Shown: positions 3,556-41,777 of the stretch, piece by piece | Numbering within the stretch: the stretch's first letter is position 1 | How the letters are laid out: every line of letters begins with the position of its first letter | IMG/VR virus record: IMGVR_UViG_3300046739_000063 | Coordinates: 1-42,256 of that record | Reading direction: 5' to 3' (one strand) | DNA: 42,256 nucleotides | Source: a virus | Taxonomy: Duplodnaviria; Caudoviricetes | Position numbers and translations under genes: made by a program | Notes under the pieces: model-generated | The model's database searches: none | What the model was told of the DNA's origin: nothing | The model's input: the letters and a program-made list of their open reading frames with translations, nothing else

Positions 3556-4986
3556 TTATAGCCTCCCTATCGGCGCGTAAAGGTCTTTGATTCTGCAAAT
3601 ATCACCCTTGTAAGCAACGATGATCTTTTGTTCTCGTTTGGGGAACTTGCGATAGTTCAGAGTCTTCTTGGCGTGGGCCAGCCGAGTGAATTCACATTCG
3701 AGGTAGGTAATCTTATTATAAACCGAAAGGCCATGCTCTTTGAAGAAAAGTTCCGTTTCGGCCTCGGAACAGTAATATGCCCCGTCTTTGTCCCGGCTGT
3801 CGCCAGTCATCACCACGAAGAAGCAATTATCATTCAGCCGATCAATGGCGATTTTGTATCCAGCGAAAAGCGCAGCACTGAACTTGTCGTAAGTGCTGAA
3901 AGTGTTCAGTTCTCCGGGGGGAGGGTTTCCGTCGTAATCAAGATATTCCTCGACCTTGTAATAAGGCGGGCAGGTGAACACCAGATCGAATCTTCCTTCC
4001 GGCTCATAGGTGGAGCTGTCGCTCTGTATCCAAGTGGAATCAAAGTCGCTGCAGAGCTTGTTATTTGCATCGCACTGGTTCTGCCTCAATTCGCTGGCCA
4101 CGTATTCATAGCCATACGATCCAGCGACAAATCCAAACTGAACACCTCCGCCGAATGGATTGTAAATTCTCCGTCCGCGTTCTGGAATGAAGAATCGCAA
4201 CACCACTTCACAAGCGACAGGATCAAGAACGGAAGCATTCCCGTTGTGCGCTTTTGTCTTGGCCTCAACCTCGCCAGCATCATTTATAAATCGCTTGGTG
4301 TTTACGATGTTGGAGTAGCCATTCTCCCCCTGCCAGCAACCGTCTCGCGTGGCATATGTCGGATTCTTGATGCCTTTCTTTTCGCCAACAGCTTCGATCT
4401 TCTCATTCCACTCCCGCTTCAACCGCAGCCAATCTCCTTTGGTTGTGTTCCAGACGTTTGTCATTGTGATATGCGCCAGAAGTTTCATCCGCACGGCGGA
4501 CAAGTCGCCCAGGACCATGTAATGAAACCCGGACATTTTCAGATAGGTGACAAATCCAAGGCTCTCGAATAATTCCGGGGTCTCGAATTTGCTCTTCGGG
4601 TCGGTGGTGATGATTGCTGGGTAGCCCTCCGTGTTATGTTCAACCACAGCCTCAACCATCTGTCTGTAAAGTGCGGGCGTGAAGTGCTGCGGTGAGATCA
4701 CCGATTGCAACAAGCAAAACTCTTTAACGACATGATTCTTCTGGAATGTCATAAAGCCAGCGAATTGACCGTCCACTTTTAACACTACGGCGGAATGAAT
4801 CTGCATGTTCTTGCGAGCGGCTCGCATCGCAATGCCGTCCTCGATTGCGAGCTTGGCTATCTGATTTTCAAATCCAGATCCGATCACACTCGGCACGCAG
4901 AGAAATTCCGCCTGCGTCTTAATCAGGTCTAGCTGTTCGCGGGTCTTAGAGCGCGAGTGTTTTTTGTCTGGCGTTTCTATTTTCAT
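3556..4986 (-). CDS. GNAT-like domain fused to amino (N4C/N6A) DNA methyltransferase
   Basis: Motif I YNPFGGG and motif IV FTCPPYY. N-terminal VVLKVDGQFAGFM...LFESLGF follows the GNAT pattern. Confidence 0.8.
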   Translation of the reverse strand: MKIETPDKKHSRSKTREQLDLIKTQAEFLCVPSVIGSGFENQIAKLAIEDGIAMRAARKNMQIHSAVVLKVDGQFAGFMTFQKNHVVKEFCLLQSVISPQHFTPALYRQMVEAVVEHNTEGYPAIITTDPKSKFETPELFESLGFVTYLKMSGFHYMVLGDLSAVRMKLLAHITMTNVWNTTKGDWLRLKREWNEKIEAVGEKKGIKNPTYATRDGCWQGENGYSNIVNTKRFINDAGEVEAKTKAHNGNASVLDPVACEVVLRFFIPERGRRIYNPFGGGVQFGFVAGSYGYEYVASELRQNQCDANNKLCSDFDSTWIQSDSSTYEPEGRFDLVFTCPPYYKVEEYLDYDGNPPPGELNTFSTYDKFSAALFAGYKIAIDRLNDNCFFVVMTGDSRDKDGAYYCSEAETELFFKEHGLSVYNKITYLECEFTRLAHAKKTLNYRKFPKREQKIIVAYKGDICRIKDLYAPIGRL

Positions 4987-5821
4987 ATGTGGGCTTGTTC
5001 GGGTTGGTTAATGCAGGAGAGCCATTGTGACTTCCTGCGATTGCGTTTTGACCCACCAAAGTCACCCCGCAAACGTCCGGGCAATGAGAGCAATGGCCAA
5101 GGTAGGTAGAATTGTTTGAGAGCGAAACCGCTCTGACAGACTCCAAATCTTTAACCGCCGTCAGTTTGATTATGCCGCCGACTACCAGGGAATGATTCTT
5201 TGGGACGCGCAAGGGATTATCAATGGTCGGGTGCAATCGGAATAACTCGTCCTGAACCGCAGCCATCCGTGCGCCGTCTGGATTAGCCCGAATGAAATCA
5301 CAGGAAACAATCCGCGCAATGCTGTCACCCCCAGAGAGTTTAAATCGGTAGAACTCACGCTTTCGATAGGCAAGCTCGGCGGCCGTGTCCAGTGCGGAAA
5401 TGGAAGTGTTCAGAACCGTTCGGCAGGCAACGAGCCTTTTAACCTGCGCGTCACTTAGCCGCATCCAGTGTTTTGTAATTACAACTGGTCGGGCGAAATC
5501 TGCGAGCCATTCGATTGTATCAACGGTTTCCTCCCAGTCGTGGCAAGGATCGCCCATTGTTCCGACCCGGAAGAAACCATGCGGAGAATTGGCAACCGCT
5601 CTCTCAATTGCCCTGGCTTGCGTCTTTGAGTGAACCTTGCGCGTGACTGCGACGGTAAAATCTATGCCACGAAATTTGGCTATGTTAGCCGCGTAGCATC
5701 CATCGTAACAGCCAGCAGCGGGCCGCGCTGCCATGCCAGCGGTGCAACCTTTGACCGTATCAACATCAAAAACACCTTTGGAATTAAGCGTTGCGGTCAA
5801 GACGTTTGAGAATTGGCGCAT
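4946..5821 (-). CDS. Radical SAM protein, SPL-like, with atypical CX11CX3C motif
   Basis: VKGC-X11-CYDGCYA, RVGTMGDP, VITK, SISALD; C-terminal CSHCPDVC. Confidence 0.75.
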   Translation of the reverse strand: MRQFSNVLTATLNSKGVFDVDTVKGCTAGMAARPAAGCYDGCYAANIAKFRGIDFTVAVTRKVHSKTQARAIERAVANSPHGFFRVGTMGDPCHDWEETVDTIEWLADFARPVVITKHWMRLSDAQVKRLVACRTVLNTSISALDTAAELAYRKREFYRFKLSGGDSIARIVSCDFIRANPDGARMAAVQDELFRLHPTIDNPLRVPKNHSLVVGGIIKLTAVKDLESVRAVSLSNNSTYLGHCSHCPDVCGVTLVGQNAIAGSHNGSPALTNPNKPTYENRNARQKTLAL

Positions 5822-5979
5822 GGGTTCACCTCAACGAGAACAACTCTCGGGTTTTTGTAGATCAACGAAATCTTCTGGCGATAATGGCCGGCCCGAATAT
5901 GGCGCCACACGGTTCTGGTGGATCGCGAGCACCTAACGGATTCTTCGTGCAGAAATTGTTTTAGTGGGATGGGTTTCAT
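5797..5979 (-). CDS. Small Xis/AlpA-like HTH protein
   Basis: SRSTRTVWRHIRAG pattern. Confidence 0.55.
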   Translation of the reverse strand: MKPIPLKQFLHEESVRCSRSTRTVWRHIRAGHYRQKISLIYKNPRVVLVEVNPCANSQTS

Positions 5980-6674
5980 TGTGAGTTGTAGTCAGGGACA
6001 TCAGCGAGCGAGACATGGCGGGCATTGCGAAGGAACCGGCTGGCTATGCGGCGCTCAAACTTGGATTCCCATGATTCAGGCGGGACATTGGTTGTGATGA
6101 CTGTCCACTTGGCAACCCGCCGCTCGAGGATCAGATACAGCTTTTCCATTCCTGCCCTGCTCGGATCGTGTTCGGCGCCGATGTCATCAATCACCAGCAG
6201 CGAAACCGGCATCATTTCCTGAACCAGATACCAGTTGCCCTCTTTGAACCTGTCAACGGTGGTGGGCCAATGGACGAACATGGTGTCTGCCAGCCTCATT
6301 TCGCCATCGTCACTGATTACGAGGGGAATCCTCATGGCCAGCCTGGATGCCCAGTTGTGGATCGCCTTGGCGGAATGGCTCTTCCCGGTGCCGTTCTCGC
6401 CTGAGATGATCATCCGGTAGCCGCTACTCGGCCGCTTTGCGTAGTTCGCGCAGAAGCTCCAGACCTCGTTCTGTAGCCGGGCCAAGAGCGGGTGGTGGGG
6501 GTTCAACCTTAGCCACTTGTCCAACCAGGCTTGCTTCTGACTCTTTTGCTTGTCGGTCAATGAGTCGTCTGGCGGCGGCTCCATAATCCGTCGGGCCGAT
6601 GGTAATTCCAACGTTTCTAGGATTTGGCTGATTGGCTTTGTTCGATCCGGTTCCGGTGTATTTTCCGTTAGCAT
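5976..6674 (-). CDS. DnaC/IstB-like helicase loader ATPase
   Basis: Walker A GENGTGKS, Walker B LLVIDDIG, TVITTN, RIASR. Start uncertain (6674 or 6584). Confidence 0.9.
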   Translation of the reverse strand: MLTENTPEPDRTKPISQILETLELPSARRIMEPPPDDSLTDKQKSQKQAWLDKWLRLNPHHPLLARLQNEVWSFCANYAKRPSSGYRMIISGENGTGKSHSAKAIHNWASRLAMRIPLVISDDGEMRLADTMFVHWPTTVDRFKEGNWYLVQEMMPVSLLVIDDIGAEHDPSRAGMEKLYLILERRVAKWTVITTNVPPESWESKFERRIASRFLRNARHVSLADVPDYNSQ

Positions 6675-7281
6675 AGTTCCTTTTCCAGTTGCGTGCAGCA
6701 GCCTCAAAGCTGCGCATCGGGTTTCTGCCTACTTTCCAACCGTTTGACTCGTAGAAATCAAAAAACTTCTCGGCCTCCTCCTGGGGCAAACCAGCTTTGA
6801 CGAACCAGAGGCGCACTTGTTCGGCTGTCGGCTTCTCAAACGCCTTTTTAGTCTCTGCCCGAATGGGCACACTCTTAGGCGAGGGCGAGGGCGAGGGCGA
6901 GGGCGAGGGCGAGGGAGGCGAACATTTGTTAACATTTGTTAACATTTGTTCGGGAGCGGCTGGATATTTACTGACTGTCCTTGCATGTTCTTTCCATTTA
7001 AGCACTTGCAAGTATTTGGTTCCGTCCACCTCATAAAGCACGATCTCTCTTTTGCTAACAAGTGTTTGCAAGGCGATAACAATTGTTTGCACGGGTATCT
7101 CATTGCCATCTGGATCGCCTAAAGGGAAAGCCTCACTCCTGACCAACATCGGCTCGGCTTCGAGTCTGCCGTAATCATCCACCAAGGTTAGCAGGCGGAT
7201 AAATAGGCTCTGGCTTAGATAGTCGCAGCGATTGAATCGGAGGCTCGTACGGACGCCTGGCCTGAGAAAGCGTTGGGGCAT
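6424..7281 (-). CDS. Replication initiator (replisome organiser, O-like)
   Basis: N-terminal MPQRFLRP...VDDYGR, SP linker, C-terminal KFFDFYESNGWKVGRNPMRSFEAAARNW; precedes the loader; contains iterons. Confidence 0.88.
   Translation of the reverse strand: MPQRFLRPGVRTSLRFNRCDYLSQSLFIRLLTLVDDYGRLEAEPMLVRSEAFPLGDPDGNEIPVQTIVIALQTLVSKREIVLYEVDGTKYLQVLKWKEHARTVSKYPAAPEQMLTNVNKCSPPSPSPSPSPSPSPKSVPIRAETKKAFEKPTAEQVRLWFVKAGLPQEEAEKFFDFYESNGWKVGRNPMRSFEAAARNWKRNYANGKYTGTGSNKANQPNPRNVGITIGPTDYGAAARRLIDRQAKESEASLVGQVAKVEPPPPALGPATERGLELLRELRKAAE
6878..6915. repeat. (GAGGGC)n tandem repeat encoding a Ser-Pro linker
   Basis: About 6 hexamer units. Confidence 0.9.
6921..7087. promoter_or_regulatory. 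Probable origin iterons AACA-NN-TGTT
   Basis: AACATTTGTT x3 in tandem (6921-6950), AACAAGTGTT 7057-7066, AACAATTGTT 7078-7087, all inside the initiator gene. Confidence 0.7.
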
Positions 7282-7306
7282 GGTCGCCAATCGAAAAGCT
7301 CTGCAT

Positions 7307-7432
7307 CGCTGCCGTGGCAGGGTCGTGAAACAAACCAGCCTTGGCGGCAAGTCCTGTTCACGGCAACGAAGCGGAAATTTCCACTGATTTGTTTCACGGC
7401 CCCAATTACTCACACCCTTCCAGCCAACGCAA
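7307..7432 (-). promoter_or_regulatory. Putative promoter and structured leader of the initiator gene
   Basis: TTGCGT-N17-GTAATT; 19-bp stem 7320-7338/7384-7402 crossed by 10-bp stem 7307-7316/7359-7368. Confidence 0.55.
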
Positions 7433-7759: not shown

Positions 7760-8071
7760 TCATGGCTTGGGGTTGGCCTTTCTTTGGAGCCGATCAATCT
7801 CAGCGGCTATCAACGCCCCGGCCTTGACTAAATCACGGACTGGGCTTTGTGGTTTCCACCATTCATCTTCCCAAGGCCATTCCTCGGGTGGGTTCTCGGT
7901 TTGATATGCTTCCGATTCCGTCCAGTGTCGGGCGATGTAATGGCCGACATAAGATTGGGCGGCGCGGGCCAGCTCTCTTGATTGGTGCTCGTCATCATGT
8001 TCAACGGTCCAGCCTTCCTTGGCTATTTGGCGCTTCCGCTCATGGGCTATCATTTCAATTCCAGTTGTCAT
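7760..8071 (-). CDS. Conserved phage protein (ERxRQ...HDD...WPW...DLVKAGALIAAEIDRL family)
   Basis: Recognisable widespread phage motif; function uncertain. Confidence 0.85.
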   Translation of the reverse strand: MTTGIEMIAHERKRQIAKEGWTVEHDDEHQSRELARAAQSYVGHYIARHWTESEAYQTENPPEEWPWEDEWWKPQSPVRDLVKAGALIAAEIDRLQRKANPKP

Positions 8072-39282: not shown

Positions 39283-39497
39283 ACCCGGCTGACTACCAAT
39301 CCATCTCCGAATCCCTGACCGCCCTTGAACTGACCGTGACGCACGCTCGCCATGCCCATGTCGCGTGCAGGTTCGATCTGGAACTGTCGCAGCTCAAACA
39401 GGCGTGGAGCCAGGCAGCGGACCTGCACCGCAACATTACTCAGGCCATGCTTGCGCCGGTCACGCACGGCTCTCAACCGAGGCCGGATACGCTGTGA
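39279..39497 (+). CDS. Hypothetical protein (72 aa)
   Basis: ATGA/GTGA coupling on both sides. Confidence 0.6.
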   Translation: MNPADYQSISESLTALELTVTHARHAHVACRFDLELSQLKQAWSQAADLHRNITQAMLAPVTHGSQPRPDTL

Positions 39498-40300
39498 AGC
39501 AGCTTGTCAATTACTCTGGCGGGTTGTGCTCGTTCTGGGCGGGGAAAAGGATGGTGGACGAACACGGTCCAGAGAATGTGGTGTTAATATTTGCTGATAC
39601 GCTGATTGAGAGCAAAGGCTTGTATGTGCGGAACGAGGAAGTCAGCAAATATCTCGGCATCCCAATCATCCGCATATCCAAAGAGCTGACACCTTGGCAA
39701 CTGTTCCGGCGTGAGGGGTTGATTGGAAATGATCATTTCCCGATCTGTTCAACGAAGCTAAAGAGGGAACCGCTCAACGAATGGATGGAGTCTCATTATG
39801 AGATGGACGAGAATCAGCACAATTATCTTTACGAACCAGCAACCGTAATCCTCGGGTTTGATTATTCCGAGTATCATCGGGTCGTGGACTTCCATAACCA
39901 GCATCCTAACTGGAGAGTCAGGGCACCAATGACAGAGGGGCCGCTGTGGGACAAGTGCAAGATGGAATCCGAGGCTCGTAAATTGGGATTCACAATCTCC
40001 GAGGCTTACGAGCAAGGATACCCGCACGACAACTGCGGCAAGCGATGCGTGAAAGCTGGCATCTCACATTGGGTCCATCTGCACAACACTGACCTGCCTG
40101 CTTTCATGGAATGGGAGAACGAGGAGGTTGCCACGCAAAAAGATTTCAGGCTGCGTGGAATTAGCAACTGGCAATTCACGATTCTCAAAGACCGTCGTGG
40201 AGGCGAGACCAAACCATTATTGTTGCGTGATCTTCGGATCAGAATAGAATCTGGCGAACAGTTCCCGAAGTATGCCTGGGGCGGCTGCGGCTGCCACTAA
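39494..40300 (+). CDS. PAPS-reductase-like adenine nucleotide alpha-hydrolase (268 aa)
   Basis: PP-loop-like NYSGGLCS, IFADT, CSTKLKREP, HDNCGKRCVKAG, C-terminal GGCGC; GTG start at 39494. Confidence 0.8.
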   Translation: MKQLVNYSGGLCSFWAGKRMVDEHGPENVVLIFADTLIESKGLYVRNEEVSKYLGIPIIRISKELTPWQLFRREGLIGNDHFPICSTKLKREPLNEWMESHYEMDENQHNYLYEPATVILGFDYSEYHRVVDFHNQHPNWRVRAPMTEGPLWDKCKMESEARKLGFTISEAYEQGYPHDNCGKRCVKAGISHWVHLHNTDLPAFMEWENEEVATQKDFRLRGISNWQFTILKDRRGGETKPLLLRDLRIRIESGEQFPKYAWGGCGCH

Positions 40301-40730: not shown

Positions 40731-41161
40731 CAGCGTGGCAGGTCCATGGCCAGGCAGCGGCCGCGGTTATCACTGGCTTTGCCTACTCGCCCACGACAGG
40801 CATTTACACCAACGAGACGGGGACGCATGAGGTTCCCGGGCCTGCGATAGTATGGACGAATGGTGTTGTTCCAGGGGCTTACTTCAGAACAAATCTTGCG
40901 GCACTCACTCCTCCACCGCCGCCCGAATCAGCCCCGACCAGCCTCAAGGTCTGGCGTGTCAAATGCCCTTACTGCTCCACAGCATTCAACACAGGCGCCG
41001 TGTTTGACCGGGTGAGTGGTGGAACATCCAACCCAGACGGCAGCACGACTGAGCATCACTCCATGAGATGCAACTGCTCCAATCTGGATTGCGCCAAGCA
41101 GATCAACTGGATGAGGGATGTGATCGTTCCAAAGGTCGTTGCGGTGCCGATCAACCCCTGA
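40685..41161 (+). CDS. Signal-peptide protein with C-terminal Zn-ribbon-like cysteines
   Basis: MRIAK plus hydrophobic stretch plus VHG-Q; CPYC...CNCSNLDC; start may be 40667. Confidence 0.65.
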   Translation: MRIAKTVAGLGALLLTAWQVHGQAAAAVITGFAYSPTTGIYTNETGTHEVPGPAIVWTNGVVPGAYFRTNLAALTPPPPPESAPTSLKVWRVKCPYCSTAFNTGAVFDRVSGGTSNPDGSTTEHHSMRCNCSNLDCAKQINWMRDVIVPKVVAVPINP

Positions 41162-41777
41162 CCCTGCAAACCCACATTCCGCGCAGGCAATGCGGGATCT
41201 GCCAGTTCTCAAGGATCAGTTCATGTTTCCAGCCCAGCTCGTCCAAGGTGCCTTCAAGTGATGCCTTGGACGGATGATCCACGACCTCGACCATGCCTGA
41301 GCAGTTGGTGTTGAGCCGGCCAGTTTCGATTGACATACCCGGCTTCTCCCAGAGCATAGAATCGAGGATGACCGTCTCGGCGTTGGACTGGTTCACGATC
41401 CGTTCAAGGTGCGCCCAGCCGTTGTGCAGGTGATAGATCAGGCCAAGGCAGGAGACGACTTCGTGGGGGCCATCCGGTGTGAACTCGCGAATGTCTGCCG
41501 TTATCCAAGAGATTCGTTGTCCTTCTGGCAATTTGCTCAATTCCCAGATGGCAAAATCATAGAAACACTCCCTCGGCTCAACCGCCGTAACATGGGCCGC
41601 TCCATACGCTGAATAGACCAGTGGAAAGTGCCCCGCGTTACTGCCCAAGTCCAGAACCCGTTTACCAGCGAACAGGCTGGACACTTTCATCAACGCCTCG
41701 GTCATTGGCCCAAGCCGATTGTTCTCGTCCTGGCCGATGCCTTTGAAACAGATCAGGGATTGTTTGGGTGGGGTCAT
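41151..41777 (-). CDS. Class I SAM-dependent methyltransferase
   Basis: GKRVLDLGSNAG, VTAVE, VVSCLGLIYHL. Confidence 0.85.
   Translation of the reverse strand: MTPPKQSLICFKGIGQDENNRLGPMTEALMKVSSLFAGKRVLDLGSNAGHFPLVYSAYGAAHVTAVEPRECFYDFAIWELSKLPEGQRISWITADIREFTPDGPHEVVSCLGLIYHLHNGWAHLERIVNQSNAETVILDSMLWEKPGMSIETGRLNTNCSGMVEVVDHPSKASLEGTLDELGWKHELILENWQIPHCLRGMWVCRVRG

What the first reader, a model, noticed from the sequence alone, without database searches (positions are those of the whole stretch)
3556..5821. Radical SAM plus GNAT-methyltransferase fusion: candidate DNA hypermodification cassette
Seen: an SPL-like radical SAM gene with non-canonical CX11CX3C and a second C-terminal CxxCxxxC overlaps by 41 bp a gene fusing a GNAT-like domain to an amino-MTase (NPFGGG, CPPY). 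The pair sits just downstream of the replication genes. Known: Mu Mom is a GNAT-fold DNA modifier, and amino-MTases make m6A or m4C. Inference: a multi-step base modification for anti-restriction that I cannot match to a described pathway.
Basis: partly seen in the sequence, partly recalled or inferred. Interest (0 to 1): 0.8.

Follow-up and report, generated by a model that had tools for sequence, protein, structure and literature searches.

The report
Phage aminoalkyl DNA-modification enzyme trio
Two overlapping phage genes encode a radical-SAM-fold, a GNAT-fold and a methyltransferase-fold domain that travel together in many uncultured phages; gene context in the methyltransferase's sister family suggests that it likely attaches SAM's amino-acid arm rather than a methyl group to a DNA base, which the other two domains would then remodel into an undescribed modified base.

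Summary
Observation confirmed. ORF-A (4946-5821, -) has a spore-photoproduct-lyase-like radical SAM fold. ORF-B (3556-4986, -) is GNAT fold plus Trm11-like amino-methyltransferase fold. They co-occur in 75 of 80 viral loci chosen by ORF-B (46 fused) and in 80 of 80 chosen by a second ORF-A clade. Both proteins carry sliding-clamp-type motifs. The scan met this trio before on two other genomes.

New here: the nearest relatives of the 'methylase' domain split by one motif-I residue. The Asp form lies beside SAM decarboxylase in 78 of 80 loci; the Gly form in 0 of 80, but 17 of 80 have a PLP enzyme homologous to M6 gp52, a base-amino-acid decarboxylase. That Asp sits where spermidine synthase has its dcSAM-selecting Asp. 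The family therefore likely transfers the amino(carboxy)propyl arm. ORF-B has Gly and neither partner, so aminocarboxypropyl transfer, then acylation, then radical remodelling is inferred (about 0.45). A methyl-first or Elp3-like route is the main rival (0.25). The GNAT lacks the CoA loop (0 of 136) and has no sequence link to Mom. Palindrome avoidance persists, which argues against blanket anti-restriction. Not found in the papers searched; Iyer 2013 could not be read.

The parts
4946..5821 (-). ORF-A, 291 aa, SPL-like radical SAM-fold protein
   Evidence: profile match to a canonical CX3CX2C phage SPL-like family, HHalign 96.7%, E 4.4e-10
5696..5746 (-). C26-X11-C38-X3-C42 triad, predicted [4Fe-4S]-SAM site; aligns with the canonical triad (spacings from 3/2 to 11/3 occur within the family)
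5069..5092 (-). C244-X2-C247-X3-C251, predicted second metal or Fe-S site
   Evidence: 147-148 of 148; invariant in 41 divergent sequences
4949..4966 (-). ORF-A tail QKTLAL, clamp-binding-type motif (degenerate in this copy)
   Evidence: 98 of 117 homologue tails carry such a motif vs shuffle mean 7.0, max 17
3556..4986 (-). ORF-B, 476 aa, GNAT-fold plus amino-methyltransferase-fold protein
4921..4935 (-). QLDLI (residues 18-22), clamp-binding-type motif before the GNAT domain
   Evidence: 58 of 120 vs shuffle mean 3.6, max 11, and 3 of 2160 other windows; 43 of 52 in the second clade vs shuffle 3.2
4504..4914 (-). GNAT-fold domain (25-161), invariant RAARKNMQ and EFCLLQS, no R/QxxGxG/A loop
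3559..4482 (-). Class I SAM-dependent amino-transferase domain (169-476), sister to phage ParB-'methylases' (phrog_498, E 1.9e-34)
4132..4161 (-). Motif I NPFGGGVQFG; Gly at the position that is Asp in the SAM-decarboxylase-linked relatives
3961..3972 (-). Motif IV CPPY
5976..7413 (-). Context: replication initiator (6424-7413) and DnaC-like loader (5976-6707) upstream on the same strand

Best explanation
ORF-A and ORF-B form a conserved, often fused three-domain phage cassette that likely rides on the host sliding clamp and likely builds a hypermodified base on newly copied DNA: the methyltransferase-fold domain would transfer SAM's 3-amino-3-carboxypropyl (acp) arm to an exocyclic amine, the GNAT-fold domain would acylate the arm's free amine, and the radical SAM domain would remodel the product. 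Shown by sequence, fold and context: the three folds, their tight linkage, the clamp-type motifs, and the motif-I/partner split in the sister family. Inferred: DNA as substrate; N4-cytosine as the likeliest acceptor (from the SPPY-like CPPY; N6-adenine is possible); acp rather than methyl transfer in this clade; the order of steps. Open: the acyl donor (the CoA loop is missing, so aminoacyl-tRNA or a non-canonical acyl-CoA site are both possible) and the radical step (H abstraction followed by decarboxylation, rearrangement as by M6 gp53, or ring closure). I put any beyond-methyl DNA modification at about 0.75 and this acp-first route at about 0.45.
For: Linkage: 28 of the top 120 ORF-B homologues are 696-771 aa fusions matching both ORFs. 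Of 80 viral loci chosen by ORF-B, the radical SAM gene is fused in 46, upstream in 19, downstream in 10 and absent in 5; 59 of 61 groups at 90% identity have it. 80 of 80 loci chosen by a 32-39% identical ORF-A clade have GNAT-MTase upstream, 23 of 23 groups at 70%. No other modification enzyme recurs among the neighbours. DNA and replisome link: clamp-type motifs on both proteins in both clades (consensus QLDLF quoted in 10.1101/2025.01.04.631326, passages read). The sister family shows little or no such motif at its termini and mostly carries a longer N-terminus, ParB in the cases scanned. Aminoalkyl chemistry: sister enzymes with DxFAG-D-[ST]VFG have SAM decarboxylase within the locus, nearly always the next gene, in 78 of 80 loci (both misses end at the contig edge; 36 of 36 groups at 70%), against 0 of 80 for DPFAG-G-SVRG (Pfam PF02675 confirmed on 8 of 8 tested). 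Spermidine synthase D103 lies in IGGG-D-GG, binds the dcSAM amine and is assumed to repel the SAM carboxyl (PMC3725402, passages read). The Gly form has a PALP enzyme in 17 of 80 loci and a GNAT-like/2OG-oxygenase gene in 6 of 80. That PALP profile matches M6 gp52 at E 2.5e-18, which decarboxylates base-amino-acid conjugates and needs a free primary amine (PMC8989533, passages read). ORF-B's clade is the sister group of this family and shares SVLDPV, ExRxxQ, CPPY, RD and RKxxKxxQ with it. Precedent for a GNAT acylating an amine on a modified DNA base: PaMx11 gp48.
Against: ORF-B's own clade has neither SAM decarboxylase nor PALP (0 of 80; none in the window), and is only 25-34% identical to the sister family. 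62 of 80 Gly-type sister loci have no tailoring partner detected, which fits plain methylation. In plants, losing the same Asp (D103I) turned spermidine synthase into a methyltransferase, not an acp transferase. The Asp/SAM-decarboxylase link may have a single origin, and the root position is weak (support 0.63). The GNAT lacks the CoA loop (0 of 136). More distant ORF-A relatives occur without GNAT-MTase (0 of 7), and a related canonical SPL-like family mostly stands alone (27 of 28), so the radical SAM may act independently. One genome (L027/L028) has ORF-B without a radical SAM gene within about 6 kb. ORF-A shows no profile match to M6 gp53. The closest solved folds of the transferase domain are RNA m2G methylases.
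Confidence: 0.45

Rival explanations
1. Methyl-first or Elp3-like hypermodification: the C-terminal domain is a true N4/N6 methylase, and the radical SAM plus GNAT add a carboxymethyl or acyl-derived group, either to the new methyl or to C5 of the same pyrimidine.
For: Radical SAM plus GNAT is the Elp3 architecture (described in PMC7261163, passages read). Gly at the discriminating position is compatible with SAM as a methyl donor. There is no decarboxylase partner in this clade.
Against: The GNAT is fused to the transferase in every intact locus examined, whereas the radical SAM is often a separate gene and changes side. The CoA loop is missing. The sister family couples to aminoalkyl-processing enzymes.
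Confidence: 0.25
2. Plain m4C/m6A methylase travelling with independent replisome passengers: an SPL-like repair or stand-alone radical enzyme and a protein acetylase or a non-catalytic GNAT.
For: Related SPL-like enzymes stand alone in 27 of 28 loci and 7 of 7 far relatives lack GNAT-MTase. Each protein has its own clamp motif. L027/L028 lacks the radical SAM gene.
Against: Linkage survives fusion, fission and gene-order inversion. In 3 loci a different SPL-like family fills the same slot. The GNAT face is nearly invariant.
Confidence: 0.12
3. The substrate is not DNA but tRNA or rRNA, a protein or a small molecule (for example acp-type RNA chemistry or a polyamine-like product).
For: The top structural matches are Trm11, TrmN and Trm14 RNA methylases and protein N-acetyltransferases. 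SAM decarboxylase normally serves polyamine synthesis (established knowledge).
Against: Clamp-type motifs, position among replication genes, ParB fusions and terminase adjacency of the sister family, an SPL-like partner, and the xPPY motif.
Confidence: 0.1
4. The radical SAM domain itself makes the acp radical by non-canonical SAM cleavage (Dph2/ArsL-like; recalled) and adds it to a base carbon, the GNAT caps the amine, and the methylase methylates separately.
For: Non-canonical Cys spacing and a second invariant Cys triad; a GNAT would have an amine substrate.
Against: The triad aligns with a canonical CX3CX2C, and the spacing varies continuously within the family. The fold is an ordinary SPL-like barrel.
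Confidence: 0.08

Closest known systems
Phage M6 / PaMx11 / ViI thymidine hypermodification (PMC8989533; passages read)
   Same: Post-replicative base decoration sculpted by an SPL-like radical SAM (gp53), a PLP decarboxylase (gp52) or a GNAT acting on a primary amine (gp48). The gp52 family recurs beside the sister transferases.
   Different: No 5-hmdU kinase, aGPT-Pplase or thymidylate synthase homologue was identified beside the cassette (neighbour clusters). The installing enzyme here is an amino-methyltransferase fold. ORF-A does not match gp53 by profile.
Phage ParB-fused / orphan amino-methylases (PF01555, phrog_498; ParB-terminase loci mentioned in PMC4738411, passages read)
   Same: Same domain family, motif I before motif IV, [CS]PPY.
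   Different: Long-branch separate clade. ParB is replaced by GNAT plus a clamp motif. It sits mostly among replication and recombination genes. Methyl transfer is questioned here for the whole family.
Elp3 (radical SAM + GNAT, tRNA U34 carboxymethylation; as described in PMC7261163)
   Same: Radical SAM and GNAT in one polypeptide in the fused forms.
   Different: SPL-like rather than Elp3-like barrel, third transferase domain, no CoA loop, clamp motifs.
Phage Mu Mom (PMC7261163; passages read)
   Same: GNAT fold in a phage DNA-modification setting.
   Different: No profile similarity (HHalign probability 0.05%). Mom acts as a single phage protein.
Spore photoproduct lyase
   Same: Best structural match (Z 11.6).
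   Different: 14% identity; no hit to TIGR04070 or any Pfam/NCBIfam radical SAM model at threshold; expanded Cys loop; extra C-terminal triad.
Spermidine synthase and the wybutosine acp transferase TYW2 (TYW2 recalled, not from a call)
   Same: Class I methyltransferase folds repurposed to hand over the aminopropyl or acp arm. The motif-I Asp matches in the SAM-decarboxylase-linked relatives.
   Different: Acceptors are polyamines or tRNA. No DNA acceptor was found in the papers searched.

Membership tests
Radical SAM superfamily | Partial TIM-barrel core | tested here: met
   Model pLDDT 94.3; first 33 rows of the VIA search are radical SAM enzymes by title or recall, best Z 11.6, rmsd 4.2, 224 aligned
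Radical SAM superfamily | Three cluster Cys after the first strand | tested here: met
   C26/C38/C42 in 147-148 of 148; align with canonical CX3CX2C
Radical SAM superfamily | [4Fe-4S] binding and reductive SAM cleavage to 5'-dA | not testable with these tools
   Needs reconstitution
Spore photoproduct lyase (TIGR04070) | Family HMM above cut-off and canonical CX3CX2C | tested here: not met
   No hit at E<=1; spacing is CX11CX3C
M6 gp53-type glycyl-thymine isomerase | Sequence relation to gp53 and linkage to aGPT-Pplase2 and 5-hmdU kinase | tested here: not met
   No hit of gp53 to ORF-A profiles; no such partner among recurrent neighbours
GNAT acetyltransferases | GNAT fold | tested here: met
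   Residues 25-161, Z 15.4, rmsd 2.3-2.4, 131 aligned
GNAT acetyltransferases | R/Q-x-x-G-x-G/A CoA pyrophosphate loop (motif recalled) | tested here: not met
   0 of 136 distinct sequences; an invariant Tyr107 follows a variable loop
Mom family | Sequence or profile similarity to Mu Mom | tested here: not met
   No hmmsearch hit; HHalign 0.05%
Elp3 | Elp3-type radical SAM with a CoA-binding KAT domain acting on tRNA | tested here: inconclusive
   Elp3 is not among the listed fold matches, which does not exclude it; CoA loop absent; substrate untested
N4/N6 DNA amino-methyltransferases (PF01555) | Class I fold with motif I and (D/N/S)PPY-type motif IV | tested here: met
   Fold; NPFGGG and CPPY conserved; Pfam score itself below cut-off (E 0.052)
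N4/N6 DNA amino-methyltransferases (PF01555) | Transfers the methyl group to give m4C or m6A | tested here: inconclusive
   Only indirect: partner survey of the sister family points to aminoalkyl transfer; ORF-B's own clade has no diagnostic partner
dcSAM-dependent aminopropyltransferases | Asp in the motif-I glycine loop and a dcSAM supply | tested here: not met
   ORF-B has Gly (146 of 156 distinct transferase hits read NPFGGGVQ[MFL]G) and no SAM decarboxylase; met only by the Asp-type relatives
Beta-clamp partners | QL[SD]LF-type linear motif at a terminus or linker | tested here: met
   Enriched far above shuffles in both proteins and both clades; binding itself untested

The most novel reading that the evidence does not exclude
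A large family of phage 'orphan DNA methylases' (phrog_498 / PF01555-like; about 2100 plus about 300 IMG/VR stretches estimated from the two motif scans, plus this clade) are not methylases. They are SAM- or dcSAM-dependent aminoalkyl transferases that put a 3-aminopropyl or 3-amino-3-carboxypropyl handle on a DNA base. Interchangeable tailoring modules then diversify it: SAM decarboxylase, PLP decarboxylase, GNAT plus 2OG oxygenase, or, as here, GNAT plus radical SAM on the replication clamp. This would be a new entry route to DNA hypermodification, a DNA counterpart of wybutosine-type side-chain chemistry.
Probability: 0.5. Interest if true: 0.92.

Novelty: new variant of a known kind. Interest (0 to 1): 0.8.

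Why it matters
Known phage hypermodifications start from a pre-modified nucleotide (5-hmdU, 5-hmC, 7-deazaguanine) or from Mom. A methylase fold that hands over SAM's amino-acid arm directly to DNA would be a new starting chemistry. It would re-annotate thousands of phage 'methylase' genes and give a one- or two-gene test in E. coli with exact mass predictions: +101 Da for acp, +57 Da for aminopropyl, +14 Da for methyl (masses from established chemistry). It would also add a second radical SAM family acting on DNA bases and a possible enzymatic amine-handle tool for DNA labelling.

Tried and rejected
Sequence searches gave nothing significant for ORF-A in Pfam, PHROGs, NCBIfam or PDB sequences or in cultured phages. 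I first suspected DUF5131; only marginal hits appeared (E 0.12 in 1 of 122 members; E 0.009 for P0271), so it is not filed there. Predicted complex of ORF-A with ORF-B: no verdict. No RNA holder was listed; all 24 DNA holders may be the source sample, so they are not used. Promoter and terminator scan: within or near shuffle expectation. No 4-mer bias is shared by cassette-bearing loci, so no target motif could be inferred. Elp3 and Mom structures were not among the listed fold matches. The counts (first part; parsing error; contaminated seeds) are invalid and were replaced. One search stopped with an error after printing the tree. Trees used subsets: 93 sequences, which left out PALP-inserted and truncated transferases and the SAM-decarboxylase-linked phages; 77, about every third Asp-type and every second Gly-type locus plus 5 cultured phages and 9 ORF-B-clade sequences. 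Each motif scan returned 120 loci, of which only the 80 with flanks were counted. One search counts the radical SAM in 74 rather than 75 of 80 ORF-B loci because of a stricter E-value. Two of those 80 loci are identical to the window. Literature: ten full-text searches found no paper describing this trio or aminoalkyl transfer by phage methylase folds. Iyer et al. 2013 (PMC3763556), the likeliest prior mention, is not held. No supplements were read, and those of PMC4738411 and PMC8989533 may list such neighbourhoods.
Full report
Observation. The window is a 42,256-base phage record with direct terminal repeats, with terminase, portal and head genes. On the minus strand, a replication initiator (6424-7413) and a DnaC-like loader (5976-6707) are followed, after a 60-aa ORF, by ORF-A (4946-5821, 291 aa) and ORF-B (3556-4986, 476 aa), which overlap by 41 nt. 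ORF-A has no significant library hit. ORF-B's C-terminal part matches phrog_498 and phrog_12517 (E 1.9e-34 and 6.1e-38).

Folds. The ORF-A model (pLDDT 94.3) is a radical SAM barrel, best matched by spore photoproduct lyase (Z 11.6, rmsd 4.2, 224 aligned; Foldseek found nothing at E<=0.001 but ranked radical SAM enzymes first). The odd Cys spacing is a loop expansion. Among 41 divergent relatives the spacing runs from 3/2 to 11/3, and the triad aligns with the canonical CX3CX2C of a phage SPL-like family (HHalign 96.7%). All six Cys are kept in 147-148 of 148 close homologues. The ORF-B model (pLDDT 83.1) has a GNAT fold at 25-161 (Z 15.4) and a Trm11/TrmN/Trm14-like class I fold at 169-460 (Z 17.5). 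The GNAT face is nearly invariant (RAARKNMQ, EFCLLQS, Y107), but the usual CoA pyrophosphate loop (motif recalled) is absent from all 136 distinct sequences. There is no profile link to Mu Mom.

Linkage. Homologue searches gave 512 ORF-A and 2328 ORF-B relatives. Of the top 120 ORF-B hits, 28 are three-domain fusions. Of the best 80 of 261 viral loci found with ORF-B, the radical SAM is fused in 46, upstream in 19, downstream in 10 and missing in 5. Three of those five begin at a contig edge, and two are one genome that really lacks it nearby; 59 of 61 groups at 90% identity have it. Three of the ten downstream cases carry a different, canonical SPL-like family in the same slot. From the other side, the best 80 of 195 loci of a second ORF-A clade all have GNAT-MTase upstream (23 of 23 groups at 70%). 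All 8 loci in prokaryote assemblies are fused or linked, one of them frameshifted; those with a named taxon are Bacteroidales, Smithella, Desulfobacterales, Chloroflexi, Phycisphaerae, Spirochaetes and a deltaproteobacterium. Recurrent neighbours are generic replication, recombination and packaging genes, so the trio is self-contained. Against obligate linkage: 7 of 7 more distant ORF-A relatives lack GNAT-MTase, and the canonical SPL-like family stands alone in 27 of 28 loci.

Where it acts. A Qxx[LM][FLWIY]-type motif precedes the GNAT in 58 of 120 homologues (shuffle mean 3.6, max 11; 3 of 2160 other windows) and ends ORF-A in 98 of 117 (shuffle 7.0, max 17). In the second clade the counts are 43 of 52 and 60 of 62 (shuffle 3.2 and 13.0). 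The window's copies are QLDLI and QKTLAL. The bacterial consensus QLDLF is quoted in 10.1101/2025.01.04.631326 (passages). This points to DNA at the replication fork. Binding is untested.

What the 'methylase' transfers. ORF-B's transferase domain is a long-branch sister of the phage ParB-'methylase' family (25-34% identity). In cultured phages that family lies beside SAM decarboxylase (ZRG1, P2559S) or a PALP-fold PLP enzyme (Vincenzo, Pam4, Mae-JY30, R6L, ZS04). The two SAM-decarboxylase-linked enzymes read FAG-D-TVFG in motif I where the others read FAG-G-SVRG. I tested this prospectively with two motif scans of IMG/VR (80 loci with flanks counted from each 120). Asp type: SAM decarboxylase in 78 of 80 (the two misses end at the contig edge), PALP in 0. 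Gly type: SAM decarboxylase in 0 of 80, PALP in 17, a GNAT-like/2OG-oxygenase gene in 6 (5 of them with PALP), nothing detected in 62 (domain identities). The Asp occupies the position of spermidine synthase D103 (IGGG-D-GG), which binds the dcSAM amine and is assumed to repel the SAM carboxyl (PMC3725402, passages). The PALP profile matches M6 gp52 (E 2.5e-18; lead from e1-3266698 and e1-4035729). M6 gp52 decarboxylates amino acids attached to DNA bases and needs a free primary amine (PMC8989533, passages). Decarboxylating SAM before transfer and decarboxylating the adduct after transfer are two routes to the same aminopropyl base, and the two partners never co-occurred. That is my basis for reading the family as aminopropyl/acp transferases. 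It is inference from context, not an assay.

Carrying this to ORF-B. ORF-B has Gly at the key position and neither partner, so its donor would be intact SAM and its first product an acp-base with a free alpha-amine. That supplies what a GNAT needs (precedent PaMx11 gp48) and a side chain for a radical enzyme. The GNAT plus radical SAM pair would parallel the GNAT-like plus 2OG-oxygenase pair of the sister family. With ORF-B as outgroup, the Asp type falls basal and the Gly type nested, and ORF-B's consensus shares SVLDPV and FG with the Asp type; root support is only 0.63. Cautions: 62 of 80 Gly-type loci have no partner; D103I converts spermidine synthase into a methyltransferase; and the Asp/decarboxylase link may be one evolutionary event. 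I therefore give acp-first 0.45, methyl-first or Elp3-like 0.25, plain methylase with passengers 0.12, non-DNA substrate 0.10 and radical acp transfer 0.08.

Purpose. Anti-restriction is plausible but unsupported here. The window avoids GTAC (O/E 0.21) and CTAG (0.43). Loci of the second clade avoid GATC, GGCC and CCGG (0.33, 0.32, 0.45), while those of the first clade show only mild avoidance (0.78 or above). Host and history confound this, but blanket protection looks unlikely; a sequence-limited mark is more likely.

Novelty. Ten full-text searches found no description of the trio or of aminoalkyl transfer by these folds. I saw passages only of PMC8989533, PMC7261163, PMC4738411, PMC3725402 and 10.1101/2025.01.04.631326, and no supplements. 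Iyer et al. 2013 was not available and may mention such neighbourhoods. The scan noted the same trio on two other genomes and the PLP and oxygenase modules on three more; the Asp/SAM-decarboxylase split did not appear in the notes I saw. TYW2, Dph2, ArsL and the GNAT loop consensus are recalled, not from calls. Verdict: a real, widespread, apparently undescribed phage DNA-modification cassette, a new variant within phage hypermodification, with a directly testable and possibly new entry chemistry. Interest 0.8.

Noticed in passing
L231-L310, L017, L019: Asp-type ParB-'methylases' with SAM decarboxylase in the locus, nearly always the next gene, in 78 of 80 loci. A likely DNA aminopropyltransferase system in its own right, with cultured phages available; about 300 IMG/VR stretches estimated.
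   Followed up: yes
L281:1089-2114 and four similar loci: SAM synthetase gene near the Asp-type transferase and SAM decarboxylase.
   Followed up: partly
L139, L145, L152, L161, L187, L190; P0391: Gly-type transferase with a GNAT-like plus 2OG-oxygenase gene, usually with PALP; fused in L152 and P0391.
   Followed up: partly
L270:3665-4531: Canonical SPL-like radical SAM next to an Asp-type transferase and SAM decarboxylase; same family as the one replacing ORF-A in L060, L094 and L102. The family mostly stands alone elsewhere.
   Followed up: partly
L464:4134-7361 (P0250): An ORF-A relative between a ParB-like gene and a PAPS-reductase-like plus ParB-like pair near terminase (read from translations; the IbrAB-like label is recalled), so this radical SAM family may serve a second modification system.
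   Followed up: no
P0312: Distant ORF-A relative fused to an ATP-dependent DNA ligase domain.
   Followed up: no
window 39365-40300 (+): PAPS-reductase-family gene (phrog_424, E 7e-24) ending in GGCGCH, about 5.5 kb from the cassette around the circle; not a recurrent neighbour.
   Followed up: no
window 41151-41777 (-): A separate class I methyltransferase (Methyltransf_23/_9).
   Followed up: no
window 7760-8071 (-): Small conserved phage domain (phrog_6628 and others, unknown function); resembles nucleotide pyrophosphohydrolase-type domains from recall.
   Followed up: no
whole window: GTAC strongly depleted (26 vs 125 expected, both strands) and CTAG depleted (36 vs 84); 127-nt terminal repeat.
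   Followed up: partly
L110; L014; L004; L063: Copies of the cassette that appear frameshifted or fragmented; decay or assembly error not distinguished.
   Followed up: no
L018:5818-6333 (phiCTP1 gp52): Short gene after a transferase with Glu at the motif-I position; looks PALP-like by eye but did not match the PALP profile (E 2.7).
   Followed up: partly
L049, L060, L063, L088, L092, L096, L101, L102: Small gene of about 90 aa (MazG-like by recall) right beside the cassette in 8 loci.
   Followed up: no
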